DNA from: Armatimonadota bacterium
GTDB lineage: Bacteria; Sysuimicrobiota; Sysuimicrobiia; Sysuimicrobiales; Humicultoraceae
Direction: 5' to 3'
Assembly (NCBI GenBank): GCA_037443365.1
Contig: JBBIOM010000002.1
Location: forward strand, 57,268 to 121,267
Length of the DNA stretch: 64,000 bases
In this document: one piece after another, positions 11,723 through 46,598 of the stretch
How positions within the stretch are numbered: position 1 is the stretch's first letter
Layout of the letters: each line of letters opens with the position of its first letter
Program-made: the position numbers and the translations under genes
Notes under the pieces: model-generated
The model's input: the letters and a program-made list of their open reading frames with translations, nothing else
Told to the model about the DNA's origin: nothing
Databases searched by the model: none

Positions 11723-13087
11723 TCAGATCTTGCCCGCAGAGCTGGTCAGCCCCCGCATCTGAAGCAGCGGGCGCGGATCGGTGATCAGCCCCCCGAGGCC
11801 TGCGGCCTTCTCCTGGAGACCGAACGCGATCGCCATCAATTGCGTGAAGTAGAACGCCGGCATGGGCGGAAGCCCGGCCGCGCGTGCCGCCTCCTCCTGC
11901 CTGGCGTCGAGGTTGTTGTGGCACAGCGGGCAGGCCACCGCGAGCGCCTCGGCGCCGGCCGCCTGAGCGTCGCGCAGGATGCGGCCGGTCAACTCGACCA
12001 CGAGGTCCGGGCGCACTACCGCGTGGCCGGCCCCGCAGCACTCGGTCTTGTGCGACCAGGCCACCGGAACCCCGCCCAGCGCCGAGATCAACCTGTCCAT
12101 CTCCATCGGATTTTCGGGCCGCGCCGCACCCGTGACCGCGGGCGGCCGCGTGAGCAGGCAGCCGTAGTAGCAGGCCACCCGGAGCCCGCGCAGCGGGTTA
12201 CGCGCCTGCGCGCGGATTCCCTCGAGCCCGCCTTCGAGCAGCGTGTGCAGGATGTGCTGTACGCGCAGCCCTTCGGGCGACCGGTCAGGAGCGTCCACCT
12301 GCGCGTGACGCAGGCGGGAGAAGCAGGCGGCGCAGGGCGCCGTCACCGCGGTGTGCCCCGCCCGCGCCGCCAGGCTCAGGTTGGCCAGCGGCAGTTCCAG
12401 CGCGAGATCCGCGGAGGTCTGGTGTGCCGCCGTCGCCCCGCAGCACCGCCACGCTTCGATCTCACGCAGCCGCACCCCGAGGGCCGCGGCCACGCCGCGC
12501 GTCGAGGCATCGTATTCCCTGGCGCTGGCGTGCAGCGCGCAGCCGGGGTAGTAGGCGATCTCGCCCGGCTCCGCCCGCCGGCCCGAACGGCGGTTCGGGA
12601 GGCCGGGGATCAGCCGCAGCTTGCCGGCGCGGAACAGCCTGAGCGCGAACCTGCTCTGGCGGAGCGGCTGGCGCATCCGCATGTTCACCTCCAGGCCTAC
12701 CCCCGCCTCGAAGAGGCGCCCGAAGAGACGGATGCTGCGGATCGCCGCCTGCGTGAAGACCGGCGCCTCGGGCACGCGCGCCGGGATGCGCCGCGATGAA
12801 GCCACGATCCTGAGCGCGTCCATGACGCGGGCCACGTCGATCCCCTGGGGGCAGCGAGCCGTACAGGCCTGGCAGGAGGCGCACAGCCAGAAGGTGTTGC
12901 CCCGCAGCAGCCGATCGTCGAAGCCGAGCTGCAGGGCGCGCATGGCGGCATGAGGCGCCAGATCCATCTCGGCGGCCAGCGGGCATCCGCTCGTGCACAC
13001 CTTGCACTGGAAGCACAGTGCGGGGTCCTGGCCGCTCTCCTGCGCGACCTCCCGTGCCAGCATCGCGCGCGTCGCTGTCTGTTCCAT
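11723..13087 (-). CDS. Fused HdrC-HdrB-like subunit (module 1)
   Basis: The N-terminal half carries CFQCKVCTSGCP and CASCQACTARCPQGIDV (HdrC-like). The C-terminal half carries IAYYPGCAL...WRCCGAT and ACYYGC...TECCGAG...CPLCH (HdrB CCG domains). The start is at internal Met79 (MEQTATR) of ORF 11723..13321 and overlaps the mvhD stop (TGATG). Confidence 0.8.
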   Translation of the reverse strand: MEQTATRAMLAREVAQESGQDPALCFQCKVCTSGCPLAAEMDLAPHAAMRALQLGFDDRLLRGNTFWLCASCQACTARCPQGIDVARVMDALRIVASSRRIPARVPEAPVFTQAAIRSIRLFGRLFEAGVGLEVNMRMRQPLRQSRFALRLFRAGKLRLIPGLPNRRSGRRAEPGEIAYYPGCALHASAREYDASTRGVAAALGVRLREIEAWRCCGATAAHQTSADLALELPLANLSLAARAGHTAVTAPCAACFSRLRHAQVDAPDRSPEGLRVQHILHTLLEGGLEGIRAQARNPLRGLRVACYYGCLLTRPPAVTGAARPENPMEMDRLISALGGVPVAWSHKTECCGAGHAVVRPDLVVELTGRILRDAQAAGAEALAVACPLCHNNLDARQEEAARAAGLPPMPAFYFTQLMAIAFGLQEKAAGLGGLITDPRPLLQMRGLTSSAGKI

Positions 13088-13557
13088 CACGGGGCATCTC
13101 CGATCTTCGCCCGCCGAAGCGGCGTCGGTCCCAACGCCGTGATGCGCTCGGTCATCTCCCGGGCTATCTCGGCGAACCGCGGGCCCTGGGCCGACGACAG
13201 GTTGAACATCTCCAGGCGCGCCCCCCCGATGCCGGCCTCGTCGAGACGCTCCTTGAGGTACCGCACACGCGCCTTGGCATGGTAGTTGCCGGCCTGGTAG
13301 TGGCACTGCCCCTCCAGGCACCCGGCCACGAACACCCCGTCCGCTCCTGCCTCGAAGGCGCGCAGGATGTAGATCGCGTCAATCCCGCCGGTGCAGGGCA
13401 GCAGCACGACCTTCACATTGGGCGGATACGGCAGGCGCATCACGCCTGCAAGGTCTGCCGCCGCGTAGGCGCAGTAGAAGCAGCAGAAGGCCACTATCTC
13501 AACCGAGGCCTTGGACGCCTCCGATTGCGCTGGGGCCACGGTAAGGTCAGCCGACAC
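13087..13557 (-). CDS. mvhD: MvhD-like (methyl-viologen-reducing hydrogenase delta subunit family) 2Fe-2S protein
   Basis: IVAFCCFYCAYAAADLAG...VKVVLLPCTGGID...GADGVFVAGCLEGQCHY. Confidence 0.85.
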   Translation of the reverse strand: MSADLTVAPAQSEASKASVEIVAFCCFYCAYAAADLAGVMRLPYPPNVKVVLLPCTGGIDAIYILRAFEAGADGVFVAGCLEGQCHYQAGNYHAKARVRYLKERLDEAGIGGARLEMFNLSSAQGPRFAEIAREMTERITALGPTPLRRAKIGDAP

Positions 13558-14668
13558 GCGCCCCCTCCATCTCGCCCAGCAGCGCCTCGATCTTGGCGAT
13601 CATCTGATCGCGCGAGTAGTGCCCCAGGCTGAGCGCGCTGCCCGGGCACACAGACACGCAAAGGCCGCATCCCTGGCAGCGTGTGGGTTCGACGACGGCT
13701 ATTCCGTCGCCGTCGAACGATATGGCGTCGTAGGCGCAGACCCGGAGGCATGTCAGGCACGTCGTGCAGCGGTCGCGATCCACCTGGGTGACGACGCCTC
13801 CGACCTCCAGGCTATCACGCCACAGCAGGGTGCTTGCCCTGGCCGCCGATGCCAGGGACTGGGCGATCGCCTCGTCCAGCAACTTGGGGTAGTGCGCGCC
13901 GCCGCAGAGGAACAGGCCTTCGCTGGCGAAGTCCGCCGGGCGCAGCTTGACGTGGGCTTCCAGGAAGAAGCCGTCGGCCGACGCCGGCACCTTGAAGATC
14001 TCCGTCAGGCCGCAGGCGCCTTCTGAGGGCACCTGAGCCGGCGCCACCACCATCAGCCCGGCATCGAGCGTGATCTCCTCGCCGAGCGCCTGGTCCCGCA
14101 GGGTAACGCGGACGGCCTCTGGAGTGCGCGTGACTTGCGGGGGCTCATCCGGCGAGTGGCGGAACACCACGACCCCGGCCTGCCGCGCCTGCGTGAAGAG
14201 CACCTCGGATGTCCCGTAGGTCCGGATCTCGCGCGCGATGACCGTGACCGGGACCTCGGGATGGGCCCGTTTGAACGCCAGCGCGGCGGCCATGGACTGG
14301 GCGCAGCACGTGCGGCTGCAGTAGAAGGGCATGCGGTCCCAGGGGCCCGCGCAGAGCAACATGACCACCGAGGCCGGGACCTCAACGGGCGCCACAACCG
14401 GAGTGAGACGCGCCTCAAACTCTGAGAGCGTTATCACGCGCGCATCCTCGCCGACCCCGTAGGCGGCGGGCTTCCACTCCTGCAGGCCGGTGGCGATGAC
14501 GGTAACCCCGTGCGAGATGGTGTGCTCGCCGTCCGGGCCTGCCACGGTTGTCTCGAAGTTGCCGACCGTGCCGTGGGAGGACCCGATCGTGCAGCCGGTC
14601 AATACGCGCACGCGGGGATGGCTGGTTGCGCGTTCGGCCAGCTCCCTCAGCAACTCCGCGGGCGCGGT
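13547..14668 (-). CDS. C-terminal part of the giant HdrA-type protein (continuation of 14647..18717 after a frame change inside a G10 run)
   Basis: The frame reads TAPAELLRELAERATSHPRVRVL...FYCSRTCC...GLFLCGGAHYP...CTTCLTCLRVCAYDAI...CQGCGLCVSVCP. This is the expected continuation of the Rossmann domain that ends the upstream ORF at ...LGGRLRSPLLAWGGG. Confidence 0.7.
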   Translation of the reverse strand, partial: TAPAELLRELAERATSHPRVRVLTGCTIGSSHGTVGNFETTVAGPDGEHTISHGVTVIATGLQEWKPAAYGVGEDARVITLSEFEARLTPVVAPVEVPASVVMLLCAGPWDRMPFYCSRTCCAQSMAAALAFKRAHPEVPVTVIAREIRTYGTSEVLFTQARQAGVVVFRHSPDEPPQVTRTPEAVRVTLRDQALGEEITLDAGLMVVAPAQVPSEGACGLTEIFKVPASADGFFLEAHVKLRPADFASEGLFLCGGAHYPKLLDEAIAQSLASAARASTLLWRDSLEVGGVVTQVDRDRCTTCLTCLRVCAYDAISFDGDGIAVVEPTRCQGCGLCVSVCPGSALSLGHYSRDQMIAKIEALLGEMEGARVG

Positions 14669-17600
14669 CCCCCCCCCCAGGCCAGAAGCGGTGAACGCAG
14701 CCGGCCGCCAAGCGTCTGCGACCGCTCCACCAGCGTGACCGGGAATCCCTGCTCGGCCAGGTTGAGGCTGGCGGTCAGGCCCGCGACGCCTCCGCCGATG
14801 ACAAGCGCTTCGCGCCGCATCGGCACCAGCACCTTGTGAAGCGGCGACAGGCGCGCGGCGCGAGCGACGGCCGCCGTGATCAGGGCCTGCGCCTTCTCCG
14901 TGGCGCCAGCGGGATCATCGCGGTGAACCCAGCTACACTGATCGCGGATGTTGGCCATCTCGAACAGGTAGGGGTTGAGCCCGGCCTCGCGCAGCGTCTC
15001 GCGGAAGATGGGTTCGTGTGTGCGCGGGGTGCAGCTGGCCACGACCACCCTGTTCAGGTGCGCTTCGGCCACGGCCTCCTTGATGCGTATCAGGGTGTCG
15101 GCCGAGCAGGTGTAGAGGGACGTCTCGGCCAGGACCACGCCCGGCAACGTCTTGGCATGCGCGGCCAGGCCGGCCACGTCCACGACGCCGGCGATGTTCG
15201 ATCCGCAGTGGCACACGAACACCCCTATGCGCGGCTCCGGATCCAACAGCATCTCAGGAGGATAGACCTTGGCTGAGATCTGGGTCCCGCGGGCCGACCC
15301 GATGATGGCCATCGCCGCGGCGGCCGCGCCGCTGCCGTCCGTGACTGAATCTGGAATGTCCCTGGGTCCGCGGAATCCGCCGGCCACGAACACGCCGGGG
15401 CGGCTGGCCTGCATAGGCGCAGAGGGCACCGTGGCGGCGAACCCGTGCTCGTCGAGGGCTATGCGGGCGGCGCAGGCAAGGGCTGCGGCACCCTTGGGCG
15501 GGGTCAGGCCCACGGCCAGCACAACCAGGTCGGCCTGCTCCTCGCGCACTGCGCCGTTCTCCTCGACGCGGAAGTGAAGCGACCGGGTCTGTGCGTCTTC
15601 CCGAAGGGCCGCCACGCGCGTGCGCACGAACCGGATCTGTTCGCGGCTGGCCCGTTCGACGTAGGCGTCGAACCCCTTGCCGAAGGCGCGCATGTCCGCG
15701 TAGTAGACAGTGCATTCGGTGCCCGGAGCGTGCTCGCGGGCGAGTATCGCTTCCTTGGTTGCGTACATGCAGCACACCGAGGAGCAGTACCGGTTCTGCT
15801 GATCGCGCGAGCCCACGCACTGCAGGAACGCTATGCGCTTGGGTTCGGCGCCGTCGGAGGGACGAGCAACGTGTCCCTGCGTCGGCCCCGACGCCGACAG
15901 GAGCCGCTCGAACTGCGGGCCGGTGAGGACGTTCGGGAAGCGGCCCGCGCCGTAGGCGTCGGCAAGCGCGGCGTCGAACGGCTCGATGCCAGGAGCCAGG
16001 ATCACGGCGCCGACATTCAGCGTCTCCTCCCGTTCGGTCTCGGCATGGTTGATCGCCTCACGGCGGCATGCCTGCACGCAGGCCAGGCACTCGGCGCACA
16101 CGCCGCAGGACAGACAGCGCGCAGCCTCAAACCGCGCCTCTTCTTCGGTCAGCCCCTCGTCCACCTCGATGAACGAGGCGCGCCTGACCTCTGCCGGGAG
16201 TTCGTGAACGCCTTGGCGCGGCTGCGGCCGTATCTGACCGCGCGCCAGGCGGTCCTCGACCTCCTCCAGCGTGAGTCTGGCGACCTGGGGTTGCGGGTCG
16301 GCCTGCAGGAACGTTCCGCGCAGGTACGCGTGAATGCCTTGTGCGGCCCGGCGGCCCGCGGCGATGGCGTCCACGATGTAGGCCGTGCCAGTTGCCAGGT
16401 CCCCTCCGGCGAACAAACCGGGGTAGCCCGTGGACTGCGACTCCGCGTCCACCTGCAGCGCCCCCCAGGGCGTGGTTACGAGGCCGGGCAGATCAGAGAA
16501 GATCTCGTTCTGCGGGGCCAGGCCTATCGCGAAGACAATCGTGTCCGCCTCTATCAGGTGCTCGCTACCCTCGATGAGTTCGAGGTGCAGCCGCCGGTTC
16601 TCGTCGAAGTGCATGGAGCGCACCCCCCGGCACTCCATGCCCGCGGCGCGGCCGTCCCGTTCCACGACGCGGACGAACGACGTGGAGGGATACACCCGCA
16701 CGCCCTCTTCTTCGGCCGCTGCCACCTCCCAGGGGTGAGCCGGCATGGCCCCGCGCGCCTCGGGACATGCCAGGAGCACCTCGGCGCCGAGCCGCACGCA
16801 TGTTCGGGCCACATCGATGCCGACGTTGCCGCCTCCCAGCACGAGCACCCGCCGACCCAGAGAGACCGGTTGCCCCAGCCGGGCGTTCTGCAGAACGTCG
16901 GTGCTGACCAGGACGCCCGGCAGATCGGCCCCAGGGATGGGGAGCTTGCGGGCCCGGTGGGTTCCGGTGGCCAGGAAGATCGCGCTGTACCCTTGCGCGA
17001 ATAGCTCGCGCACGTGCGAGACGCGGCTGGAGGTGCGTATCTCGACGCCCAAGGCAGCGATTGCCGCGACCTCGCGCTCAACTATGCTCGCCGGCAACCT
17101 GTGCTCCGGGATGCCGACGCGCATCATGCCTCCCGGAACAGGCAGCGCCTCGTGGACGGTCACGCGGTAGCCCAGCACGGCCAGATCCCGGGCCGCCGTC
17201 AGCCCGGCGGGGCCTGAGCCTACAACCGCCACGCGTTCGGGGTGCGCCGGCTCCACCTGCGCCGGAGGCTCGCCCGGCCGCGCATATGCCCAGTCGGCCA
17301 CGAACCGCTTGAGCGCAGCGATGTTCACGGCCCCGTCAACGAGCGAACGCGAGCAGGCGTCCTCGCACCGGTGGTTGCACACTCGGCCGCAGATCCCGGG
17401 AAACGGGTTCTCCATCTGGATCACGCGGAACGCCTCTTCGTAGCGTCCCTGGGCCACCAGCGCCACGTACCCCTGCGCCCTCTGGTGAATGGGACAGGCG
17501 TCGCGGCAAGGTGCACGCCCCCGCTTGTCAATGGCGTATGCGCCTGGAACGGCCTGGGCATAGGAGCGGTATATGGCACTGCGCGCGGCCAGCCCCGCGT

Positions 17601-18717
17601 TGAACTCGCTGGGCACGCCCACAGGGCACGCCGCGGCGCAGTCACCGCAGCCTGTGCAGCGGAGCGGATCCACGAAGCGGGGGCGCTGCCGTATGGTGGC
17701 GGCGAAGTCCCCGGCGCTCCCCTCCAGACTCTCCAGCTCGGCCAGCGTGTGGATCTCGATGTTAGGATGCAGCCTGACACCCGACAGCTTGGGCGACAGG
17801 ATGCACATCGCGCAGTCGTTCGTGGGGAAGGTCTTGTCGAGCGTGGCCATGCGACCGCCTATGGCTGGGCCGCGCTCGACCAGGTGCACCTTGATGCCAG
17901 CGTCCGCCAGATCGAGCGCAGCCTGGATTCCCGCGATCCCGCCGCCGACCACCACGGCCGCGCCCACCACGCCGTCGCCGGTCTCCTCGGGAGGCCCGGC
18001 CGGTCTTGCCTCCTCGATCGCGGTGGCCACGCGGGCTGCCCCCCCGGGGGCCGGGCCTTCGTCGAGGTCGTCGCGCGCGGCCGCGGGCACTCGCACCATG
18101 CGGTCCAGCAGCTCGATCTGATCGGCCAGCCGCTGGCGGCAGCGCACAAGGATGTGCCGCTGATCATCGGTGAGATCGCCGGCCGTTCCCGCCAGCATCG
18201 CCTCCAGGTAGCCGGCCACCCTGGCGGCGGGAGACCGCAGGTCGTACGTGGCCACCGCCTGCATCTGGGTCAGTCGGGCTCGCACCTGCGCCATGCGCGA
18301 TTCGATGAGGTCCACTAGACCGGCCATTATGGGATACCCGATCTCCCAGTCCAGCGATATCAACCTGCGCAGAACCGGGCCGCTGATGGCCACCAGAACC
18401 GTGGGCTCGACGCTGACCGCAGACATCGTCAGCACAAACGGCGGCACAAGGGCAGACCATCCGAGGCTCTCGCCCGCCCCGAGCACGGACACGACGACCG
18501 ACCTGGGCAGGTCCCCTTCCTGCTCCGGTGTTCGCATCTCCAGGGCCACCCGGCCCGTGTGGATCACGAAGAAGTCGCGGGCCTCGTCCCCTTCAGAGAA
18601 GATGCGCTCCCCCGGCTGGAAGGAGACAACGGTGCCCAGCGAGGCCACCAGGTCTCGGGCCGATGGGCTAAGCCCTGCGAGAAGGGCGCACCGGCCCATG
18701 GCTTCACGCTGGATCAT
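14647..18717 (-). CDS. Giant multi-domain HdrA-type flavo-FeS protein: cNMP-binding-like domain + His-less DHp-like domain + HdrA unit with inserted GltD/NfnB-like NAD(P)H module + start of a second HdrA unit
   Basis: Residues 1-130 are CRP/FNR-type (SFQPGERIFSEGDEA...GRVALEM). Residues ~140-210 are DHp-like (ATYDLRSPAARVAGYLEAML). Residues 251 onward are HdrA (VVVGGGIAGIQAALDLADAG...GGRMATLDKTFPTNDCAMC). Residues ~403-800 are glutamate-synthase-small-subunit-like (CGRVCNHRCEDAC; RVAVVGSGPAGLTAARDL; VLVLGGGNVGIDVA; FAGGD). Then FLQCVGSRD..YCSSVCCMY, followed by a second unit with IGVFVCHCGSNIAG...ALVIGGGVAGLTASL. Confidence 0.8.
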   Translation of the reverse strand: MIQREAMGRCALLAGLSPSARDLVASLGTVVSFQPGERIFSEGDEARDFFVIHTGRVALEMRTPEQEGDLPRSVVVSVLGAGESLGWSALVPPFVLTMSAVSVEPTVLVAISGPVLRRLISLDWEIGYPIMAGLVDLIESRMAQVRARLTQMQAVATYDLRSPAARVAGYLEAMLAGTAGDLTDDQRHILVRCRQRLADQIELLDRMVRVPAAARDDLDEGPAPGGAARVATAIEEARPAGPPEETGDGVVGAAVVVGGGIAGIQAALDLADAGIKVHLVERGPAIGGRMATLDKTFPTNDCAMCILSPKLSGVRLHPNIEIHTLAELESLEGSAGDFAATIRQRPRFVDPLRCTGCGDCAAACPVGVPSEFNAGLAARSAIYRSYAQAVPGAYAIDKRGRAPCRDACPIHQRAQGYVALVAQGRYEEAFRVIQMENPFPGICGRVCNHRCEDACSRSLVDGAVNIAALKRFVADWAYARPGEPPAQVEPAHPERVAVVGSGPAGLTAARDLAVLGYRVTVHEALPVPGGMMRVGIPEHRLPASIVEREVAAIAALGVEIRTSSRVSHVRELFAQGYSAIFLATGTHRARKLPIPGADLPGVLVSTDVLQNARLGQPVSLGRRVLVLGGGNVGIDVARTCVRLGAEVLLACPEARGAMPAHPWEVAAAEEEGVRVYPSTSFVRVVERDGRAAGMECRGVRSMHFDENRRLHLELIEGSEHLIEADTIVFAIGLAPQNEIFSDLPGLVTTPWGALQVDAESQSTGYPGLFAGGDLATGTAYIVDAIAAGRRAAQGIHAYLRGTFLQADPQPQVARLTLEEVEDRLARGQIRPQPRQGVHELPAEVRRASFIEVDEGLTEEEARFEAARCLSCGVCAECLACVQACRREAINHAETEREETLNVGAVILAPGIEPFDAALADAYGAGRFPNVLTGPQFERLLSASGPTQGHVARPSDGAEPKRIAFLQCVGSRDQQNRYCSSVCCMYATKEAILAREHAPGTECTVYYADMRAFGKGFDAYVERASREQIRFVRTRVAALREDAQTRSLHFRVEENGAVREEQADLVVLAVGLTPPKGAAALACAARIALDEHGFAATVPSAPMQASRPGVFVAGGFRGPRDIPDSVTDGSGAAAAAMAIIGSARGTQISAKVYPPEMLLDPEPRIGVFVCHCGSNIAGVVDVAGLAAHAKTLPGVVLAETSLYTCSADTLIRIKEAVAEAHLNRVVVASCTPRTHEPIFRETLREAGLNPYLFEMANIRDQCSWVHRDDPAGATEKAQALITAAVARAARLSPLHKVLVPMRREALVIGGGVAGLTASLNLAEQGFPVTLVERSQTLGGRLRSPLLAWGGGPRPRSC
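14669..14678 (-). repeat. G10 homopolymer (C10 on plus strand) at the frame break inside the HdrA-type gene
   Basis: The ORF-track translations of all three frames cross the same TGGGGGGGGGGAC tract. One extra G, or a -1 slip, joins the two ORFs. Confidence 0.9.
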
Positions 18718-19900
18718 CGGCAGATGTCTCCCCCTGCCCCACCGGCGGCGAATCGCCGGGGGGGAGTTCGACGGCGAGGGCCCGGGGTATCGAGAGCGTG
18801 AAAACCGCGCCGCTTGTCTCTCCTGGAGGCGGGCTCTCTGCCCAGATCTGACCGCGGTGGGCCTCGACGATCCTCTTCACGAGGGACAAACCCAGCCCCA
18901 ACCCCTTCGACTGGGCCATCTGCCCCCTGTAGAACTCGTCGAAGATGCGGGGCAGATCGGACGGCGCTATCCCAGCGCCGTTGTCGCGCACCTGCACCCG
19001 GATCTCATCTCCCCGGTCCAGGGCGGACACGACGACTTCTCCGCCGGAGGGCGTAAACTTCACGGCGTTGTCCAGGAGGTTGGTAATGGCTTCCTGCATG
19101 CGCAGCGGCGCCATCAAGAGCGACGGCATGCCCCGAGGCACCAGCGCCTCCAGGCGCACTCCCTTTGCCCGGGCCGCGGCCGCCACGTTCTCCACGGCCT
19201 TCTCAATGATATCCTGCATGGATGCGACGCCCAGCTCCGCGGAGAAGTCGCCGGTCTCGATCCGGGAGACCCGCAGAAGGCTGTTGATGAGCTCGATCAG
19301 CTCCTGCACACGGATGCTGCACCGCTCCAACATCTCTCGCTGCCGGTCAGCGACCTCCCCGGCGTAGCCGCCCAGCATCACCTGAAGGTAGCTCTCCACG
19401 GCCGCCAGGGGCGCCTTCAGTTCGTGTGACACCATTGCGATGACGAAGCCCAGCTTGGCCCTCGCCTCCTGGAGGCGGCTTCCCACCAGCTGGGCCAGGC
19501 CGCGCATCAGGAGGGCCCCGGCCCGAGGGTCCTCGGCGATCAGTCGTTCCAGCATCTCGCGCTCGAATGCCACGACCGTCGTGGGCTGAATTGCCACGGC
19601 CGACATGGTGCGCGTGTGAGGAGGCACGAGCGCGGACCAGCCGAAGCAGTCGGGGGGACCAAGCACCGCGGCGAATGTGCGCCGCTCGCCCGCCTCGGAC
19701 CTGCCGATCTGCAGGTCCATCTCGAGGGCGACGCGTCCCCGCTCAATGATGCACAGGTGTGTGGCGCCCTCCCCCTCCTCGAAGATCCGCTGCCCGGGCT
19801 CGAACGATCGCTGCTCACCCATAGCCGCCAGGCGGCGCAGAAGCGCCACGGGCAGGTCCTTGAACAGGGACGAGCGCTCCAGGGCCGCCTGGCTGGCCAT
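18704..19900 (-). CDS. Sensor histidine kinase with N-terminal cNMP-binding-like domain (no TM segments seen)
   Basis: CRP/FNR-type N-terminus (SFEPGQRIFEEGEGA...GRVALEM), H-box AMVSHELKAPL (His159), N-box NLLDNAVKF, and G-boxes VRDNGAGI and GLGLGLSLV. Confidence 0.85.
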   Translation of the reverse strand: MASQAALERSSLFKDLPVALLRRLAAMGEQRSFEPGQRIFEEGEGATHLCIIERGRVALEMDLQIGRSEAGERRTFAAVLGPPDCFGWSALVPPHTRTMSAVAIQPTTVVAFEREMLERLIAEDPRAGALLMRGLAQLVGSRLQEARAKLGFVIAMVSHELKAPLAAVESYLQVMLGGYAGEVADRQREMLERCSIRVQELIELINSLLRVSRIETGDFSAELGVASMQDIIEKAVENVAAAARAKGVRLEALVPRGMPSLLMAPLRMQEAITNLLDNAVKFTPSGGEVVVSALDRGDEIRVQVRDNGAGIAPSDLPRIFDEFYRGQMAQSKGLGLGLSLVKRIVEAHRGQIWAESPPPGETSGAVFTLSIPRALAVELPPGDSPPVGQGETSADDPA

Positions 19901-19901
19901 G

Positions 19902-20786
19902 CTACTCCACTCCCGGAGCCGCCAGGCCGCCGGCCTCGAGCACGCGCGGCAGCAGGTGATCCCATCCCATGGCCATCAGGTGGATGCCCTGGCACAGCGG
20001 CCGCAGTTCCCGGATCAGCCCGGCGGCCACGCCCACGCTGGCCTCCTGGCGGTCCTTGGCTGTCTCCATGATCTCGATGAGGCGGCCGGGAACGTGCACG
20101 CCCGGGACATTCCGGTTCATGAACCGGGCCATACCGGCGGACTTCAGCATGATGATGCCTGCCAGTACCGGCTTGCCCACGGGCCGGGCGGCTTCCATGA
20201 AGCGGGCGAAGCCGTCCGGGTCGAAGATGGCCTGGGTCTGGAAGAAGTCGGCGCCGGCCTGAGCCTTCTTCGCCATCTTGAGCAGTTGGGGCTCAACCGG
20301 ATCCGCGCCCGGGCTGACGACCGCGCCCAGGAGGAACTCGGGGGCGCCGTCCAGTTGCTTCCCCGCCATGTCCTGCCCCTGCTCCAGCCCGACCGCGGCG
20401 CGCAGCAGGGAAACCGAGTCCAGGTCGAACACGGGCTTGGCCTGCGGGTGGTCACCAAGCTTCACGTGGTCTCCCGTAAGGCACAGCACGTTCTCGATGC
20501 CCAGCGCCGCCGCGCTCAGGAGATCCGACTGCAGCGCAATCCGGTTTCTGTCGCGGCAGGTGACCTGGAAGATGGGCTCGAGGCCCCGCTCCCGAAGCAT
20601 GTGGCAGAGCACCAGCGAACCCAGGCGCATCACCGAGCTCTGCTGGTCGGTGACGTTGAACGCCTGCACCCGTCCCCGCAGGCGCTCGGCTTCCTGAATG
20701 GCTCCTGCCACGTTGATTCCCTTGGGCGGGGAGGCCTCGGCCGTCACCACGAACCGGCCTCCGGTCAGGGCCTCTCGCAGGGTCAT
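19902..20786 (-). CDS. metF: Methylenetetrahydrofolate reductase, paralogue 1
   Basis: GRFVVTAEASPPKG..., QVTCRDRNRIALQSDLL and LCLTGDH. The ATG overlaps the stop of the receiver gene upstream (ATGA). Confidence 0.85.
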   Translation of the reverse strand: MTLREALTGGRFVVTAEASPPKGINVAGAIQEAERLRGRVQAFNVTDQQSSVMRLGSLVLCHMLRERGLEPIFQVTCRDRNRIALQSDLLSAAALGIENVLCLTGDHVKLGDHPQAKPVFDLDSVSLLRAAVGLEQGQDMAGKQLDGAPEFLLGAVVSPGADPVEPQLLKMAKKAQAGADFFQTQAIFDPDGFARFMEAARPVGKPVLAGIIMLKSAGMARFMNRNVPGVHVPGRLIEIMETAKDRQEASVGVAAGLIRELRPLCQGIHLMAMGWDHLLPRVLEAGGLAAPGVE

Positions 20787-21208
20787 GGCGTCTCAGAGCC
20801 TCCCTCGGACCGGCCGCGGCGTGCCAGCAGCTTCTCCACCCTTTCTAGGAGCAGGCCCGGAGGAGCGGGCTTGTCGAGATAGTCCTCTGCCTCCAGGCTG
20901 AGCCCTGCGCTGACCGGAAGGCCGGACTCCCCGTGGCGCTCGGCGAACGAGGTGAGCATGATGACAGGCACCGAGGAGAGCACCGGGTCGCGCTTCAGCT
21001 CCTCGCAGACCGTGAAGCCGTCCTTGAACGGCATGATCACGTCCAGGATGATCAGGTCGGGCGGATCCTCGCGCGCCAGACGCAGCCCCTCAACGCCATC
21101 CAGCGCCGCGGTCACCCGATAGTTGCGGCTCTCCAGCACCGTCCGGGTGGTCTCGACCAGGTCCGGGTCATCGTCAATGAGCAGAATGCGCTCCTGGGTC
21201 TTAGCCAA
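20783..21208 (-). CDS. Stand-alone receiver (CheY-like) response regulator 2, no output domain
   Basis: ILLIDDDPDL, DLIILDVIMPFKDG, VIMLTS and DYLDKP. The start is proposed at in-frame TTG 21208 (MAKTQERILL), 7-8 nt after a GGAGAGG SD-like site that lies within the last codons of the upstream gene. The longer ORF (to 21310) overlaps receiver 1. Confidence 0.8.
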   Translation of the reverse strand: MAKTQERILLIDDDPDLVETTRTVLESRNYRVTAALDGVEGLRLAREDPPDLIILDVIMPFKDGFTVCEELKRDPVLSSVPVIMLTSFAERHGESGLPVSAGLSLEAEDYLDKPAPPGLLLERVEKLLARRGRSEGGSETP

Positions 21209-21212
21209 GGTC

Positions 21213-21629
21213 CTACACCTCTCCGGGGTTGCCCGATCGCTTGCCGCGCCTGTCCAGCACCTTGCGGACACGATGCAGCAGATCCACCGGCCGCACCGGC
21301 TTCTCGACATAGTCGTCCACGTCCATGGCCAGCCCGGCCTCGAGTTCGTACCTGCGCCGGCTGGCCTCTTCGCCCACGGCAGAGAAGATCACAATCGGAA
21401 TGGTCGCCCAGCGGGGTTTCTCCTTCAGGGCCCGCACCACGGCGTATCCGTCCATCCTGGGCATCATCATGTCCAGGATGATCAGGTCGGGGGCCTCCCG
21501 GCGTATGCACTCGAGCCCCTGCTCGCCGTCGGGGGCGGTCTCGACACTGTAGCCAGCAGCCTCCAGTACCATCCGGACCGCCACGGTGATATCCTGATCG
21601 TCGTCCACCACCAGGATCCGAGGTTGCAT
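21213..21629 (-). CDS. Stand-alone receiver (CheY-like) response regulator 1, no output domain
   Basis: MQPRILVVDDDQDI, DLIILDMMMPRMDG, IVIFSA and DYVEKP. Confidence 0.85.
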   Translation of the reverse strand: MQPRILVVDDDQDITVAVRMVLEAAGYSVETAPDGEQGLECIRREAPDLIILDMMMPRMDGYAVVRALKEKPRWATIPIVIFSAVGEEASRRRYELEAGLAMDVDDYVEKPVRPVDLLHRVRKVLDRRGKRSGNPGEV

Positions 21630-21661: not shown

Positions 21662-22579
21662 TCATATCAGCGGCCGAGGCAGAAGCCCGGCCCTCTCCGC
21701 CAGAACGGGGACGACCTCTTCCCACCCCACGGCCATGATGTGCACACCCCGCACGCCTGGTATGTCGCGCACGGCGTCAATGATGTCCACCGCGATGGCC
21801 ATTCCCTCGGCCTTGGGATCCGAGGCATCTTCCATGCGCGAGACCACGCCGTCAGGAACGACAATGCCGGACACGTAGTCCCGCATGTAGCGCGCCATAC
21901 CAACCGATTTCAGGGGCACGATTCCGGCCAGGATCGCCGTCTTCTCGTGCAGCCCCCGCGCCCTGACCTGGGCCATCCAGCGCGCGAAGATCTCGAGATC
22001 ATATACGGCCTGCGTCTGTATGAAGCTGGCGCCCGCGCGCACCTTCTTCGCCAGGCGCACCACCCGGTATGGAAGCGGGTCGGCGAACGGGTTGGCCGCG
22101 GCCCCGATGAACATCGAAACGTCGCCGGTGAACTCATCGCCACTCTGGAACCTGCGCGCATCGCGCATGCCGGCCAGCACCTGTATCAGCTGGATCGAGT
22201 CGAGATCGAAGACGTTCTTGGCCCCCGGGTGGTTGCCGAACTGCTGGTGGTCCCCGCTCAGGCACAGGAAGTTGCGCACTCCGGCCCCCACGGCACCCAA
22301 CACGTCCGACTGCAGCGCCAGGCGGTTCCGGTCGCGGCACGTCATCTGCATCACGGGGTCCAGACCCATGCGGCGCAGATGGATCGCGCAGGCCAGGCTG
22401 GACATGCGCACGATCGCGGTCTGGTTGTCGGTCAGATTGATGGCGTCACAGCAGTGCCGGAGGATCTCGGCCTTGCGCTCCACGACGCCCAGGTTCGTGC
22501 CCTTGGGCGGGCCCAGCTCGGCGGTCACAGCGAACCGCCCAGCGGCCAGCACGACCTCCAGGTTGCTGCCCGCGGGCAT
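21662..22579 (-). CDS. metF: Methylenetetrahydrofolate reductase, paralogue 2
   Basis: GRFAVTAELGPPKG, QMTCRDRNRLALQSDVL and LCLSGDH. Confidence 0.85.
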   Translation of the reverse strand: MPAGSNLEVVLAAGRFAVTAELGPPKGTNLGVVERKAEILRHCCDAINLTDNQTAIVRMSSLACAIHLRRMGLDPVMQMTCRDRNRLALQSDVLGAVGAGVRNFLCLSGDHQQFGNHPGAKNVFDLDSIQLIQVLAGMRDARRFQSGDEFTGDVSMFIGAAANPFADPLPYRVVRLAKKVRAGASFIQTQAVYDLEIFARWMAQVRARGLHEKTAILAGIVPLKSVGMARYMRDYVSGIVVPDGVVSRMEDASDPKAEGMAIAVDIIDAVRDIPGVRGVHIMAVGWEEVVPVLAERAGLLPRPLI

Positions 22580-22584
22580 GGCCG

Positions 22585-23262
22585 CTACACCTCCTCCTCG
22601 ACCATCTCGCGCAGGTCAGGCCGCGTGATGCGGCGCGGCCCGCCGGAGTGGCTCGCCTTCCAGTCCCGGGCCGGGATGATCTCCTCGAGCTGGTCCAGGC
22701 GTCCCTGCGCTTCCAGGCGCTCGTGGATCAGAACCCAGGCGCAGGGATTGTCTACCGACAGCTCGCAGTGCCCATCCTGGGGCCCTCCGCAGGGGCCGTT
22801 CAGGAGGCTCTTGGCGCACCTGGCCACCGGACAGATCCCTCCGGTGCGGTGCAGGAGGCAATCACCGCAGGCCATGCACCGCTCACCCCATATCCCAGGG
22901 GCCTCGGTCAGCCCCATGAAGGCGGTGTTGAGCCCAGGCAGCGCGATCACACCTCCGTAGCGCTCCCCTATTCCCTGCACACCCACCCCGCATCCCAGGG
23001 ACAGCACGGCATCGGCCCGGCGCACCGCCTCGCCGACCTGATCCAGGAACTCCCACTCGCACTGCCGCTGAACCACGGCCTCCCCGATCTCGACCTCTGG
23101 GCCCAGCACCGAGCGCAGCGCGGTGGCCACCACGGCGACTTCCTTCTCTCCCCCGGCAAAGCAGACAGTCGTGCACGTTCCGCAGCCGAGCACCAGGAGG
23201 CGGCGGAACCCGCTCACCATCTGCCGGATCTCGTCCAGGGGCTTCTGTTGTGCAACAATCAC
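22585..23262 (-). CDS. metV: MetV (MTHFR C-terminal-domain-like FeS/zinc-ribbon protein), copy 1
   Basis: MIVAQQKPLDEI..LVLGCGTCTTVCFAGGEKEV; CMACGDCLLHRTGGICPVARCAKSLLNGPCGG. Confidence 0.8.
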   Translation of the reverse strand: MIVAQQKPLDEIRQMVSGFRRLLVLGCGTCTTVCFAGGEKEVAVVATALRSVLGPEVEIGEAVVQRQCEWEFLDQVGEAVRRADAVLSLGCGVGVQGIGERYGGVIALPGLNTAFMGLTEAPGIWGERCMACGDCLLHRTGGICPVARCAKSLLNGPCGGPQDGHCELSVDNPCAWVLIHERLEAQGRLDQLEEIIPARDWKASHSGGPRRITRPDLREMVEEEV

Positions 23263-23278: not shown

Positions 23279-24148
23279 CTATACGGCCAGCGCTTGGATC
23301 ACCGGCCGGACCTCCACCAGGTGCCTTCCGAACCCCAAGCGTCGCGGACTCGCTCCCAGCGCGAGCGCGGTCAGTTGAGTGAAGAACACCACCGGGAGGG
23401 GACGCTCGAACCCCGCCCTGGCGGACGTGGCGCCCTGCAGCAGATCCAGGTTGAGCTGGCACAGCGGACAGGCAGTGGCCAAGCAGTCGGCGCCCGCTCG
23501 GTGGGCCTGCTCCAAGATGCGGCCAACCAGATCCGCGGCAAGATCGGGCGCCGTGGCGGCCAGGCTGGCGCCACAGCACCAGGTCCTCCCCTGCCACTCG
23601 ACCACGTCGGCCCCACACGATCCGAGCACGCGCTCCATGATCCTCGGGTTCTCCGCATCGTCTATCCCACCACACCTGGGCACGCGCACGAGCAGGCAGC
23701 CGTAATAGCACGCCACCTTCACTCCTGCCAGAGACCGCCGGACCCGCGCGGAGAGGTCGATCTCGTCCAGGACCGAGAGCAGGTGCCGCACCCGGACCCC
23801 ACCGCCGTAGGCGAGGCCCGCCTGCGCGGCTGCCTGCGCCGCCTCCGCCGAGGCGCCAAGCTCGTGCTCTGCCTGAACCAGCCTGTGGTGACAGGCGGCG
23901 CACGCGGTCAGCACGTCGGTCCCGCGGGCCTGGGCAATCGCTAGGTTGCGGGCGGGCAGCAGGACCGCCAGGTCCGCGTCCACGAAGTGGGCCGAGCTGG
24001 CGCCGCAGCAGTTCCAATCCGGCAGTTCCTTCACCTGCATCCCCAGGGCGCGCAGCGTCTCACGCACGGAATCCAGATAGGGGGAGCCGGTGCTCTGCAA
24101 TGAACAGCCCGGGTACAAGGCGAGCGGCCTGGCCGGCGCATTCTGCAT
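23279..24148 (-). CDS. hdrB: HdrB-like (CCG domains), module 2
   Basis: LALYPGCSL...PDWNCCGAS; ACYYGC...RTWCCGAS...CPLCQ. The start is at internal Met72 (MQNAPARP) of ORF 23279..24361 and overlaps the hdrC stop (TGATG). Confidence 0.8.
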   Translation of the reverse strand: MQNAPARPLALYPGCSLQSTGSPYLDSVRETLRALGMQVKELPDWNCCGASSAHFVDADLAVLLPARNLAIAQARGTDVLTACAACHHRLVQAEHELGASAEAAQAAAQAGLAYGGGVRVRHLLSVLDEIDLSARVRRSLAGVKVACYYGCLLVRVPRCGGIDDAENPRIMERVLGSCGADVVEWQGRTWCCGASLAATAPDLAADLVGRILEQAHRAGADCLATACPLCQLNLDLLQGATSARAGFERPLPVVFFTQLTALALGASPRRLGFGRHLVEVRPVIQALAV

Positions 24149-24720
24149 CAGCGCCCACCCCCCTTGCCGGTCGTCCGGAACAGGCGGCGGACCTCTTTGC
24201 GCCCCCGCACGAGGTGGGGCAGCAGCGCAAGCCGGCGGTGCCGCACCAGCGCCAGGCCCGTGGCCAGGTCCTGCCGGAGGCGTCCCTGCTGCAGGCTGTG
24301 CCCGGCCGAGAGCAGACCCTCGTGGGCCCGACCGAACATCCACACGGTGCGCAGGAACCACCGGTGGAATCCGAGGATGCCCGCCCTGGGGGGAGGCCCT
24401 CCCCTGGCCAGGGAGGCCTGCCGCACCGCGTCCATCACCCGGGCGACGTCAATCCCGTTCGGGCACCGGATGGCGCAGGTCTCGCACGCCACGCACAGGT
24501 AGGGCGCCGCGGCTTCGAGGACACGCTCCCGGAGGCCCAACTGCACCGCCTTCATCAGGCGGCTCGGAAGGATGTCCATCGCATGAGCCAGCGGACAGCT
24601 CCCGGTGCAGACCCCGCACCCGTAGCAGAGCCGCACGCGCTCCCCGCTGGCCGCCTCTATGGCCAGCGGCCAGGAGGAATCCCGCGGGGACGGCTGCGTG
24701 GGCGCCTCATGCTGGGGCAT
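24148..24720 (-). CDS. hdrC: HdrC-like (2x[4Fe-4S]), module 2
   Basis: CYGCGVCTGSCP and CVACETCAIRCPNGIDV. Confidence 0.8.
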   Translation of the reverse strand: MPQHEAPTQPSPRDSSWPLAIEAASGERVRLCYGCGVCTGSCPLAHAMDILPSRLMKAVQLGLRERVLEAAAPYLCVACETCAIRCPNGIDVARVMDAVRQASLARGGPPPRAGILGFHRWFLRTVWMFGRAHEGLLSAGHSLQQGRLRQDLATGLALVRHRRLALLPHLVRGRKEVRRLFRTTGKGGGR

Positions 24721-27702: not shown

Positions 27703-27722
27703 GACCGCGCTGCGTGTGTCGC

Positions 27723-30118: not shown

Positions 30119-30127
30119 GGCGCCCTC

Positions 30128-31462: not shown

Positions 31463-31477
31463 CCCGGCTCCCGGCCG

Positions 31478-32263: not shown

Positions 32264-32277
32264 CTGGCTCCTCCTTG

Positions 32278-34635: not shown

Positions 34636-34648
34636 CCTCGCGCCCTCC

Positions 34649-36568: not shown

Positions 36569-36593
36569 TACGCCACCACTTCCACACGGTTCC

Positions 36594-37952: not shown

Positions 37953-37966
37953 CGTGTCTTGACCCC

Positions 37967-40153: not shown

Positions 40154-40210
40154 GGCTTCTTCCCTCCTAACGTTTCTATGGACCAGGGGTCCAGCATCAA
40201 CAGACCAGGG

Positions 40211-46586: not shown

Positions 46587-46598
46587 CCTCCCCGGCCC

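What the first reader, a model, noticed from the sequence alone, without database searches (positions are those of the whole stretch)
17968..18717. His-less copy of the neighbouring kinase's sensor and dimerisation region fused in frame to the electron-bifurcating HdrA subunit
Seen in sequence: the first ~210 residues of ORF 14647..18717 align position for position with the N-terminus of the histidine kinase encoded immediately upstream (18704..19900).
- cNMP-binding-like fold: SFQPGERIFSEGDEA..GRVALEM versus SFEPGQRIFEEGEGA..GRVALEM, and LGWSALVPP..TMSAV versus FGWSALVPP..TMSAV.
- DHp helix pair: fusion AVATYDLRSPAARVAGYLEAMLAGTAGDLTDDQRHILVRC versus kinase AMVSHELKAPLAAVESYLQVMLGGYAGEVADRQREMLERC.
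- The phospho-acceptor His (kinase His159, codon 19424-19426) is Tyr in the fusion (Tyr158, codon 18244-18246), and no HATPase domain follows.
- After a Pro/Ala/Gly/Glu-rich linker (residues ~211-250) the same frame runs, with no stop, into a canonical HdrA FAD domain (VVVGGGIAGIQAALDLADAG...GGRMATLDKTFPTNDCAMC).
- The kinase 3' end and the fusion 5' end overlap by 14 nt.

Inference: the flavin-based bifurcating subunit of a MetFV-Hdr-MvhD-type methylene-THF reductase carries a pseudo-kinase sensor. One possibility is direct allosteric control by whatever ligand the kinase also senses. Another is DHp-DHp heterodimerisation that docks the kinase onto the enzyme.

I am not aware of a described HdrA with this N-terminus, but I could not search.
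Basis: partly seen in the sequence, partly recalled or inferred. Interest (0 to 1): 0.9.

Follow-up and report, generated by a model that had tools for sequence, protein, structure and literature searches.

The report
Kinase-derived sensor stub fused to HdrA
A giant flavoprotein subunit of a carbon-fixing (Wood-Ljungdahl) enzyme complex carries, at its front end, a conserved copy of the sensor and dimerisation half of the signalling kinase encoded next door, which suggests that a two-component signalling system acts directly on the enzyme; this has not been tested by experiment.

Summary
Residues 1-242 of ORF 14647..18717(-) align with the upstream kinase at 39% identity (E 3e-47). A cNMP-binding-like domain passes Pfam, an AlphaFold model shows a DHp-like helical hairpin, no ATPase domain follows, and the frame runs without a stop into HdrA.

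The fusion is not an artefact. At least 16 independent assemblies of the uncultured phylum Sysuimicrobiota (CSP1-3) carry it as one ORF of about 1720 aa. The sensor and hairpin evolve under purifying selection (dN/dS 0.13-0.43), while the linker evolves neutrally.

Three corrections:
- "His-less" is not a family trait. Orthologues next to a kinase and two receiver-only regulators keep His (6 of 7; the window has Tyr). Orthologues without them have Phe, Ser or Tyr (0 of 6).
- The window gene is truncated by a frameshift in a C10 run (14669-14678). Relatives read on through ORF 13547..14653.
- The fusion lacks a pocket Arg that the kinase keeps, so a shared ligand is doubtful.

Related cNMP-kinases with receiver-only regulators sit in hdrA-mvhD-metVF clusters elsewhere, next to sensor-less HdrA.

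Best reading: a regulatory and dimerising head that links the enzyme to this signalling system by docking, as in DivL. It is a new variant of known kinds, and I found no description in the papers searched.

The parts
18352..18717 (-). Residues 1-122: CRP/cNMP-binding-like beta-barrel sensor domain of the fusion protein
   Evidence: Pfam cNMP_binding at residues 31-121, 47.6-51.4 bits against a cut-off of 27.5. The AF2 model has pLDDT mostly above 85 here. Foldseek top hits are CRP, GlxR and PKA-R domains. The pocket is non-canonical: Trp87 and Leu96 align with PKA RI-alpha Glu324 and Arg333.
18088..18351 (-). Residues 123-210: DHp-like helical hairpin, with no ATPase domain after it
   Evidence: AF2 predicts helix 124-175, a loop, then helix 184-208. 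The stretch aligns with the kinase DHp. HisKA scores below threshold at 16.8 bits, E 0.007, cut-off 26.9. dN/dS is 0.13-0.42.
18244..18246 (-). Tyr158 codon (TAC) at the phospho-acceptor position
   Evidence: The same position is CAC or CAT (His) in L001, L002, L003, L009, L010, L011 and P0168. It is Tyr in P0169, Phe in five clusters and Ser in P0162, and P0164 reads 'SH' with the His shifted by one.
17968..18087 (-). Residues 211-250: Pro/Ala/Gly/Glu-rich linker
   Evidence: pLDDT is below 50 for modelled residues 211-225. Length and sequence vary among orthologues. dN/dS is 0.28-1.27.
14647..17967 (-). Enzyme core: HdrA FAD domain (DKTFPTNDC), inserted NfnB/GltD-like NAD(P)H module, and the second HdrA N-domain with the start of its Rossmann fold
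   Evidence: On the orthologue P0160, PDB hits are HdrA (8rvu, 5odc; E about 1e-170, 4 stretches) and NfnA/GltD-like proteins over its residues 402-880. Pfam finds Pyr_redox_2 and Fer4_20.
14669..14678 (.). C10 homopolymer (G10 on the coding strand) where the reading frame breaks
   Evidence: Orthologues read TGGGGCGGCGC here and stay in frame. Eight or eleven G would restore the frame. It is the only frame break within a gene in the roughly 22 kb compared with L001 and L014.
13547..14653 (-). Continuation of the same gene in relatives: the rest of the second HdrA plus a C-terminal 2x[4Fe-4S] ferredoxin domain
   Evidence: It aligns end to end with residues from about 1355 to the end of the single ORFs in L001-L004. 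Pfam finds Fer4 families.
18704..19900 (-). cNMP-binding / HisKA / HATPase_c histidine kinase, the paralogous source of the fused module
   Evidence: Pfam. Sister clade to the fusion sensors. It keeps the H-box His and the pocket Arg.
19902..20786 (-). MetF (MTHFR)
   Evidence: Pfam MTHFR, E 2e-37.
20783..21208 (-). Receiver-only response regulator 2
   Evidence: Pfam Response_reg, E 5e-23, with no output domain. Gene limits come from the source record.
21213..21629 (-). Receiver-only response regulator 1
   Evidence: Pfam Response_reg, E 2e-26, with no output domain.
21662..23262 (-). Second MetF (21662-22579) and MetV (22585-23262)
   Evidence: Pfam MTHFR and DUF5981, the MTHFR C-terminal family.
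23279..26614 (-). Second Hdr set: HdrB (CCG), HdrC (Fer4), and an HdrA-like C-terminal part fused to FlpD/MvhD. Start codons are uncertain.
   Evidence: Pfam. The synteny is the same in L014.
11723..13557 (-). MvhD (13087-13557) and fused HdrCB (11723-13087) downstream of the fusion gene
   Evidence: Pfam FlpD, E 9e-47, and Fer4_17 plus CCG. Gene limits.

Best explanation
The first ~210 residues are a regulatory head. They arose by duplicating the sensor and DHp half of the cluster's own cNMP-type histidine kinase and grafting it, through a flexible linker, onto the giant HdrA subunit of a MetFV-HdrCB-MvhD methylene-THF reductase.

I propose two functions:
1. It dimerises HdrA through the DHp four-helix bundle and passes a conformational signal from the CRP-like domain to the enzyme.
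2. In operons that also encode the kinase and two receiver-only regulators, as this window does, it gives the enzyme a transmitter-type docking surface. The two-component system can then act on the enzyme after translation.

In this genome the acceptor is Tyr. The coupling would therefore be by binding of phosphorylated receiver (or of the kinase), as in the pseudokinase DivL, and not by phosphorylation of the stub. In sister genomes that keep His, phosphotransfer to the stub remains possible.

Shown here: the homology, the fusion, its conservation, the selection on it, and the pattern of His retention with kinase context. Inferred: dimerisation, docking, and any effect on enzyme activity.
For: - Homology to the kinase: 39% identity, E 3e-47. 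The fusion sensors are sister to the operon kinases.
- Fold: beta-barrel plus helical hairpin, mean pLDDT 81.7.
- One uninterrupted ORF in L001-L004, L009-L011, L013-L016, L018 and L019, and 11 further 90%-identity clusters carrying PF00027.
- Purifying selection: cNMP domain 0.13-0.43 and DHp 0.13-0.42, against linker 0.28-1.27 and core 0.12-0.19.
- His is kept in 6 of 7 distinct forms that have kinase plus two receivers, and in 0 of 6 forms without them. Fisher's exact test on these counts gives p of about 0.004 by my own arithmetic. It ignores phylogeny.
- All 18 other cNMP-kinases sampled keep His.
- The only response regulators in the cluster lack an output domain.
- Related cNMP-kinases with receiver-only regulators are embedded in hdrA-mvhD-metVF clusters that have a sensor-less giant HdrA (L021, L024). 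Others sit next to metV or metF (L022, L025). That is 4 of 5 examined.
- A two-component system flanking metF was noted in Chloroflexi DscP3 (PMC5736913).
- DivL precedent: Tyr at the His site, no kinase activity, and specific binding of the phosphorylated single-domain regulator DivK through the DHp docking face. Y550H binds equally well in that study, which also cites earlier work showing that Y550F still binds DivK~P specifically (PMC4211667).
Against: - No experiment or complex model supports docking or any effect on activity.
- The module survives under selection in six lineages that lack an adjacent kinase, receivers and His. Its core role therefore cannot depend on the two-component system. 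Those genes could, however, lie elsewhere in those genomes.
- Sensor-less orthologues P0170-P0172 nest among sensor-bearing ones in an unbootstrapped neighbour-joining tree. The head is dispensable in some lineages.
- HisKA does not reach Pfam's cut-off.
- The His/kinase association rests on few evolutionary transitions.
- The window gene carries a frameshift, so this particular copy could be decaying.
Confidence: 0.45

Rival explanations
1. The head is a cis-acting ligand sensor only. The CRP-like domain binds a small metabolite and switches the enzyme allosterically through the coiled hairpin, with no involvement of the kinase or receivers.
For: - The module is retained under purifying selection in six kinase-less, His-less lineages.
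- The long helix 124-175 runs straight from the barrel into the hairpin, as in signalling helices.
- The pocket differs from the kinase's, Leu or Phe against Arg. The two would then sense different things.
Against: - It does not explain why His is kept only where the kinase and receivers are adjacent.
- Both residues that contact the cyclic nucleotide in PKA are replaced, by Trp and Leu, and no ligand can be named.
- DHp constraint is somewhat tighter in kinase-containing operons: 0.13-0.16, against 0.22-0.42 without the kinase.
Confidence: 0.25
2. The head is a histidine phosphotransferase or phospho-acceptor of the Spo0B/ChpT kind. The kinase's ATPase domain, or a phosphorylated receiver, phosphorylates the His of the stub, and phosphorylation controls the enzyme.
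For: - It is a DHp without an ATPase domain, and it keeps an H-box (THDLRSP) in six kinase-associated orthologues.
- Receiver-only proteins are encoded alongside.
Against: - It is impossible at this site in the window (Tyr) and in every Phe or Ser form.
- The acceptor was lost repeatedly while the rest of the hairpin stayed conserved.
Confidence: 0.15
3. The head is a passive dimerisation or scaffold element, or a decaying remnant of a gene-fusion accident, with no signalling role.
For: - HdrA acts as a dimer in solved Hdr complexes. This rests on my knowledge of the 5ODC-type structures and was not tested here.
- Some lineages have lost the head.
- The acceptor His has been lost.
- The window gene is frameshifted.
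Against: - dN/dS of 0.13-0.43 across both domains, including the ligand-binding barrel, contrasts with a near-neutral linker.
- A pure dimeriser would not need the barrel.
- The link between His retention and kinase context argues for signalling.
Confidence: 0.12
4. The fusion is an assembly or frameshift artefact that joins two separate genes.
For: The same window gene has a homopolymer frameshift further downstream. In DNA of about 70% GC, long open frames arise easily.
Against: The junction is open in frame in at least 16 independent assemblies from NCBI, ENA, JGI and Logan, with variable linker sequences and lengths.
Confidence: 0.02

Closest known systems
DivL pseudo-histidine kinase of Caulobacter (PMC4211667)
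   Same: - It has Tyr at the phospho-acceptor position of an otherwise conserved DHp.
- The transmitter is re-used as a receiver of information, binding a phosphorylated single-domain response regulator.
- The His, Tyr or Phe state does not matter for that binding.
- The window likewise encodes receiver-only regulators.
   Different: - DivL keeps its ATPase domain and PAS sensors, and it regulates another kinase (CckA).
- Here the ATPase domain is gone and the stub is covalently joined to a redox enzyme.
- Binding of a receiver is not shown here.
Spo0B / ChpT histidine phosphotransferases
   Same: These are DHp-type four-helix bundles without autokinase activity that work with receiver-only proteins. 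The His-bearing orthologues fit this pattern.
   Different: Those proteins are free-standing, retain a degenerate ATPase-like domain and always need the His. The window has Tyr, and the stub is fused to an enzyme.
MetFV-HdrABC-MvhD methylene-THF reductase of Moorella thermoacetica and marine Chloroflexi (as described in PMC5736913)
   Same: metF, metV, hdrA, hdrCB and mvhD lie together within a Wood-Ljungdahl cluster. In Chloroflexi DscP3 two metVF sets and a two-component system flanking metF were noted.
   Different: HdrA here is a tandem HdrA of about 1470 aa with an inserted NfnB/GltD-like module, plus the 250-residue sensor head. No sensor fused to HdrA is mentioned in that paper.
cNMP-binding-domain fusions that regulate enzymes (for example mycobacterial cAMP-dependent protein acetyltransferase, PKA regulatory subunits); cited from general knowledge
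   Same: An N-terminal CAP-type effector domain controls an attached or associated catalytic unit.
   Different: Those bind cAMP through the canonical Glu and Arg. Here both positions are replaced, a DHp hairpin intervenes, and the target is an HdrA-type flavoprotein, a family known for electron bifurcation.
Sensor-less giant HdrA orthologues (P0170 of Armatimonadetes bacterium CSP1-3; Chloroflexota proteins of about 1500 aa)
   Same: They share 70-78% identity (same phylum) or about 55% identity (Chloroflexota) over the whole enzyme core, with the same MetF-HdrA-MvhD-HdrCB-FchA-FolD synteny.
   Different: They start directly at the HdrA Rossmann motif (MIGAAMVVGGG...) and have no head.

Membership tests
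Pfam cNMP_binding (PF00027) / CAP effector-domain fold | Profile score above the gathering cut-off, and a beta-barrel fold | tested here: met
   47.6-51.4 bits against 27.5. All 11 aligned members match. The AF2 model shows the barrel, and Foldseek hits are CRP, GlxR and PKA-R at E 1e-8 to 1e-10.
Functional cyclic-nucleotide binders | Phosphate-binding-cassette Glu (ribose) and Arg (phosphate), as in PKA RI-alpha E324 and R333 | tested here: not met
   The HMMER alignment to PKA RI-alpha places Trp87 and Leu96 at these columns. All fusions have Trp plus Leu or Phe. The operon kinases have Trp plus Arg.
HisKA / DHp domain | Profile score above the Pfam cut-off | tested here: not met
   16.8 bits, E 0.007, against a cut-off of 26.9 in the window protein. 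Six of 11 aligned sequences match at E <= 1, and the best of these is the kinase.
HisKA / DHp domain | Antiparallel two-helix hairpin homologous to a bona fide kinase DHp | tested here: met
   Helices 124-175 and 184-208. Residue-for-residue alignment with the kinase DHp lies within a hit of E 3e-47.
HisKA / DHp domain | Phospho-acceptor His in the H-box | tested here: not met
   Tyr158 (TAC) in the window. His is present in six kinase-associated orthologues.
Histidine kinase | HATPase_c catalytic domain | tested here: not met
   No HATPase_c match in the 1356-aa protein. It is present in the neighbouring kinase at E 4e-29.
DivL-type pseudokinase acting as a sensor of phosphorylated receiver | A non-His residue at the acceptor site in a conserved DHp, with single-domain regulators as partners | tested here: met
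   Tyr158 with the DHp under purifying selection. Two receiver-only genes lie in the operon.
DivL-type pseudokinase acting as a sensor of phosphorylated receiver | Specific binding of the phosphorylated receiver to the DHp face | not testable with these tools
   No complex prediction or biochemistry was available.
DivL-type pseudokinase acting as a sensor of phosphorylated receiver | A retained, inactive ATPase domain | tested here: not met
   No HATPase_c domain.
HdrA (heterodisulfide reductase subunit A) | Sequence homology to structurally defined HdrA, including the FAD domain | tested here: met
   On the orthologue P0160, 8rvu and 5odc HdrA at E about 1e-170 in four stretches. The DKTFPTNDCAMC motif is visible in the sequence.
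Moorella-type MetFV-HdrABC-MvhD methylene-THF reductase | Co-located metF, metV, hdrA, hdrB/C and mvhD genes | tested here: met
   Pfam MTHFR, DUF5981 (MetV), CCG with Fer4_17 (HdrCB) and FlpD (MvhD) lie next to the fusion gene.
Moorella-type MetFV-HdrABC-MvhD methylene-THF reductase | Complex formation and flavin-based electron bifurcation | not testable with these tools
   This needs biochemistry.

The most novel reading that the evidence does not exclude
A dedicated two-component system (a cNMP-type kinase plus receiver-only regulators), embedded in hdrA-mvhD-metVF clusters of several lineages, has the electron-bifurcating methylene-THF reductase itself as its output. In Sysuimicrobiota the enzyme has captured a copy of the kinase's DHp as a built-in docking or phospho-acceptor site. 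The fusion would thus reveal the system's otherwise hidden target, and would mean direct post-translational control of a Wood-Ljungdahl step by phosphosignalling.
Probability: 0.3. Interest if true: 0.8.

Novelty: new variant of a known kind. Interest (0 to 1): 0.6.

Why it matters
How acetogen-type methylene-THF reductases of the Hdr type are regulated is unknown, and their electron partners are still debated.

A conserved signalling stub on HdrA, together with a kinase and receiver-only regulators embedded in these clusters in several lineages, gives a concrete and testable handle. One can ask which proteins dock, what the CRP-like domains bind, and whether enzyme activity or assembly responds.

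It also adds an example to the short list of histidine-kinase transmitters re-used as protein-interaction modules. Here, unusually, the module is welded to a metabolic redox enzyme. The related genomes also offer a natural series to compare: kinase with His; kinase with Tyr; no kinase with Phe, Ser or Tyr; and head lost.

Tried and rejected
- **Word-indexed protein search with residues 1-250.** It returned only eight cNMP-only proteins of about 158 aa, and neither the window protein nor its orthologues. I treat this as a limit of the word pre-filter and not as absence. The genome and metagenome scans and the full-length search found the family.
- **Exhaustive search of cluster representatives.** It showed no HdrA fusion among the best 150 hits. 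Most likely the fusions are represented by sensor-less cluster heads. I used it only to define the kinase relatives.
- **PDB sequence search and Foldseek.** They see only the cNMP barrel. The hairpin is too small to drive a hit, so they say nothing for or against a DHp.
- **Assembly-artefact reading.** Rejected on 16 or more independent open junctions.
- **General indel errors as the cause of the frameshift.** tblastn of L001 and L014 proteins against the window found only this one frame break within a gene in about 22 kb. The split of the second HdrA' into two genes (26530-27741 and 24707-26614) also occurs in L001 and L014, so it is not an error.
- **Independent confirmation of Tyr and the C10 run.** The second contig carrying the 1356-aa protein was not shown and I could not tell whether it is an independent assembly, so I could not confirm either feature.
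- **Phosphatase-sink idea.** I considered that the DHp dephosphorylates the receivers. The H-box reads H/Y-D-L-R-S/A, without the Thr or Asn of the HisKA phosphatase motif. That motif is recalled from memory, so I did not pursue the idea.
- **Literature searches for HdrA with cNMP, HisKA or histidine kinase and the Sysuimicrobiota description paper.** No mention of the fusion.
Full report
**1. What is in the window**

ORF 14647..18717 on the minus strand encodes 1356 aa. Its first 250 residues align with the kinase encoded just upstream (18704..19900, 398 aa). The alignment covers 242 residues at 39% identity and 58% positives, E 3e-47, and runs from residue 1 through the kinase's DHp.

- Pfam finds cNMP_binding above threshold in both proteins. 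HisKA and HATPase_c pass only in the kinase.
- In the fusion, HisKA reaches only 16.8 bits (E 0.007, cut-off 26.9).
- An AlphaFold2 model built from 11 sequences has mean pLDDT 81.7. It shows a beta-barrel (residues 1-122), a 52-residue helix (124-175), a short loop and a second helix (184-208), followed by a disordered tail. This is a CAP-type sensor whose C-helix continues into a DHp-like hairpin.
- Foldseek matches CRP, GlxR and PKA regulatory domains.
- The acceptor codon 18244-18246 is TAC, Tyr.
- No stop separates the hairpin from VVVGGGIAGIQAALDLADAG...DKTFPTNDCAMC.
- The two genes overlap by 14 nt.

**2. The gene is longer than the ORF**

Orthologous loci carry a single ORF of 1717-1738 aa. 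The window follows them up to ...RLRSPLLAWGG and then changes frame inside a run of ten C (plus strand 14669-14678). It continues as ORF 13547..14653.

Orthologues read TGGGGCGGCGC at this point. Eight or eleven G would restore the frame. tblastn of L001 and L014 proteins against the window shows this as the only frame break within a gene in about 22 kb. The cause is either a single homopolymer error or a real lesion, and reads are needed to decide.

The window comes from GCA_964615245.1, contig CAZTQE010000002.1.

**3. The enzyme part**

PDB sequence searches with the orthologue P0160 give these hits:
- HdrA (8rvu, 5odc) at E about 1e-170, in four stretches.
- NfnA, NfnB-like and GltD-like proteins over P0160 residues 402-880.

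The core is thus a tandem HdrA with an inserted NAD(P)H-flavin module. It is not a plain HdrA.

The neighbouring genes are MetF (two copies), MetV, HdrB, HdrC, HdrCB, MvhD/FlpD, two receiver-only response regulators, FchA-like, FolD, NuoE/F-like proteins and a selenocysteine formate dehydrogenase. CODH/ACS, AcsE and FTHFS lie upstream, assigned only from ORF positions, ORF-end sequences and synteny with annotated loci. The setting is a Wood-Ljungdahl supercluster of the Moorella-type MTHFR kind. Bifurcation itself is inferred.

**4. The fusion is real, conserved and confined to one clade**

- A genome scan found four loci and a metagenome scan five more.
- The full-length protein search found 11 further 90%-identity clusters of 1695-1738 aa that carry PF00027.
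- All junctions are open in frame, and the linkers vary in sequence and length.
- One locus is Candidatus Fervidifonticultor quintus, of the phylum Sysuimicrobiota (CSP1-3).
- In the same phylum, sensor-less orthologues at 70-78% identity start directly at the Rossmann motif (P0170-P0173). Chloroflexota homologues at about 55% identity are also sensor-less.
- JGI's pipeline names the fused form 'heterodisulfide reductase subunit A-like polyferredoxin/CRP-like cAMP-binding protein'.
- I found no paper that describes it.

**5. Selection**

Pairwise Nei-Gojobori dN/dS values:

| Region | dN/dS |
|---|---|
| cNMP domain | 0.13-0.43 |
| Hairpin (DHp) | 0.13-0.42 |
| Linker | 0.28-1.27 |
| Enzyme core | 0.12-0.19 |

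The head is a selected part of the protein, tethered by a freely evolving linker.

**6. The acceptor residue follows the gene context**

Two contexts exist.

- **Type 1.** The order is HdrA'/FlpD-HdrC-HdrB-MetV-MetF-REC-REC-MetF-kinase-fusion-MvhD-HdrCB. It occurs in the window, L001-L003, L009-L011 and L014. The position is His in every case except the window.
- **Type 2.** The order is MetV-FTHFS-MetF-fusion-MvhD-HdrCB, with no adjacent kinase or receivers. It occurs in L004, L012/L013, L015, L016, L018 and L019. The position is Phe, Ser or Tyr, or a His shifted by one residue.

Counting distinct forms, His is kept in 6 of 7 type 1 and in 0 of 6 type 2. All 18 other cNMP-kinases sampled keep His.

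In a neighbour-joining tree of the core, the type 1 His forms branch first, type 2 forms are derived, and three sensor-less proteins nest within type 2. There is no bootstrap, so this is indicative only. The simplest history is as follows:
1. The kinase's front half was duplicated onto HdrA while the kinase and receivers were present.
2. The kinase and receivers were later lost.
3. The His then decayed.
4. In some lineages the head itself was lost.

'His-less' is therefore a derived and variable state. Tyr recurs independently in P0169, so the window's Tyr is plausible biology.

**7. The kinase family belongs to these clusters**

The fusion sensors and the operon kinases are sister clades. I examined the gene context of five more distant cNMP-kinases:
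- Two (L021, L024) lie inside clusters reading giant-HdrA(sensor-less)-FlpD-MetV-kinase-MetF-REC(-REC)-HdrCB.
- Two more (L022, L025) abut MetF or MetV.
- One, on a short contig, has only a receiver next to it.

A two-component system flanking metF was also noted in Chloroflexi DscP3 (PMC5736913). The adjacent regulators have no output domain. This favours a protein-level target over transcriptional control.

**8. Ligand**

Two residues contact the cyclic nucleotide in PKA RI-alpha, Glu324 and Arg333. In the HMMER alignment to PKA RI-alpha they align with Trp87 and Leu96 of the fusion. All fusions have Trp plus Leu or Phe. All operon kinases have Trp plus Arg. A cyclic nucleotide is doubtful for both proteins, and a ligand shared by kinase and fusion is unlikely.

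**9. Mechanism**

My best reading has confidence 0.45.
- The head dimerises HdrA and regulates the enzyme.
- In type 1 operons it provides a transmitter-type surface through which the kinase and receiver system acts on the enzyme.
- With Tyr at the acceptor site, the window's protein would work by docking. DivL is the precedent: it has Tyr at the His site, shows no kinase or phosphatase activity, and binds phosphorylated DivK through the DHp face whether position 550 is Tyr or His, with earlier work cited there for Phe (PMC4211667).
- A weak lead supports this. Position H+7 of helix 1 is Ala in the kinase and in most type 1 fusions, but Met, Ile or Leu in most type 2 fusions. That this position determines partner specificity is recalled from the EnvZ literature and was not tested here.

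The rivals are:

| Rival reading | Confidence |
|---|---|
| Pure cis ligand sensor | 0.25 |
| Spo0B-like phospho-acceptor (excluded at this site in the window) | 0.15 |
| Passive dimeriser or remnant | 0.12 |
| Assembly artefact | 0.02 |

**10. Verdict**

The object is a new variant built from known kinds: a CAP-type sensor, a DHp and HdrA. It is restricted to an uncultured clade, is annotated automatically, and is not described in the papers I could search.

Its value lies in pointing to direct phosphosignalling control of an Hdr-type methylene-THF reductase, and in the natural series of His, Tyr, Phe and head-less states. Interest is 0.6.

Noticed in passing
window 14669-14678: A C10 homopolymer (G10 on the coding strand) splits the giant hdrA gene into ORFs 14647..18717 and 13547..14653. 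All relatives have one ORF. It is the only frame break within a gene seen in about 22 kb compared with two orthologous loci.
   Followed up: partly
window 6770-6772 (minus strand): An in-frame TGA lies in the formate dehydrogenase alpha subunit at ...NNVDLCARV*HAPSVAG..., the classic selenocysteine site. The frame continues for about 585 more codons, so ORF 6770..8170 and the ORF ending near 5015 are one Sec-containing gene.
   Followed up: partly
window 20783-21629: Two adjacent receiver-only response regulators, with no output domain, sit between the two metF genes. Both appear to keep the acidic pocket, the phospho-acceptor Asp, the Thr/Ser and the Lys, judged by eye from the sequence.
   Followed up: partly
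L021 (ENA ERZ4756918 NODE_997) and L024 (Logan SRR28822773_3914): Outside the fusion clade, cNMP-HisKA-HATPase kinases with receiver-only regulators are embedded in clusters reading giant-HdrA(sensor-less)-FlpD-MetV-kinase-MetF-REC-HdrCB. This kinase family seems dedicated to MTHFR/Hdr clusters. L022 and L025 also place it beside MetF or MetV.
   Followed up: partly
window 24707-27741: A second HdrA-like protein is encoded as two genes in different frames, 26530-27741 and 24707-26614, the latter ending in a FlpD/MvhD domain. The same split occurs in L001 and L014, so it is a genuine arrangement. Together with HdrC, HdrB, MetV2 and MetF2 it forms a second Hdr-MetVF set.
   Followed up: partly
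window 18430-18470 and 19620-19660 (pocket region of the two sensor domains): Both sensor domains carry a G-W-S-A-L motif where canonical cNMP binders have G-E. The kinase keeps the cassette Arg (PPHTRTMSA), and every fusion has Leu or Phe (PPFVLTMSA). The ligand of this large 'GWSAL' subfamily is unknown. The subfamily also includes many stand-alone proteins of about 155 aa.
   Followed up: partly
window 27723-42226: The rest of the Wood-Ljungdahl gene set appears to lie upstream on the same strand. It reads FTHFS, a further MetV, a FolC-like ligase, AcsE, and large ORFs in the position of CODH/ACS subunits. These are assigned only from ORF-end sequences and synteny with annotated loci. A separate NarL/LuxR-type two-component pair seems to sit at about 44152-46598.
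   Followed up: no
L014 15127-15753: In this orthologous locus the FTCD_C (cyclodeaminase-like) gene is called as two pieces of 56 and 151 aa. This may be another frameshift or assembly error in a related MAG.
   Followed up: no
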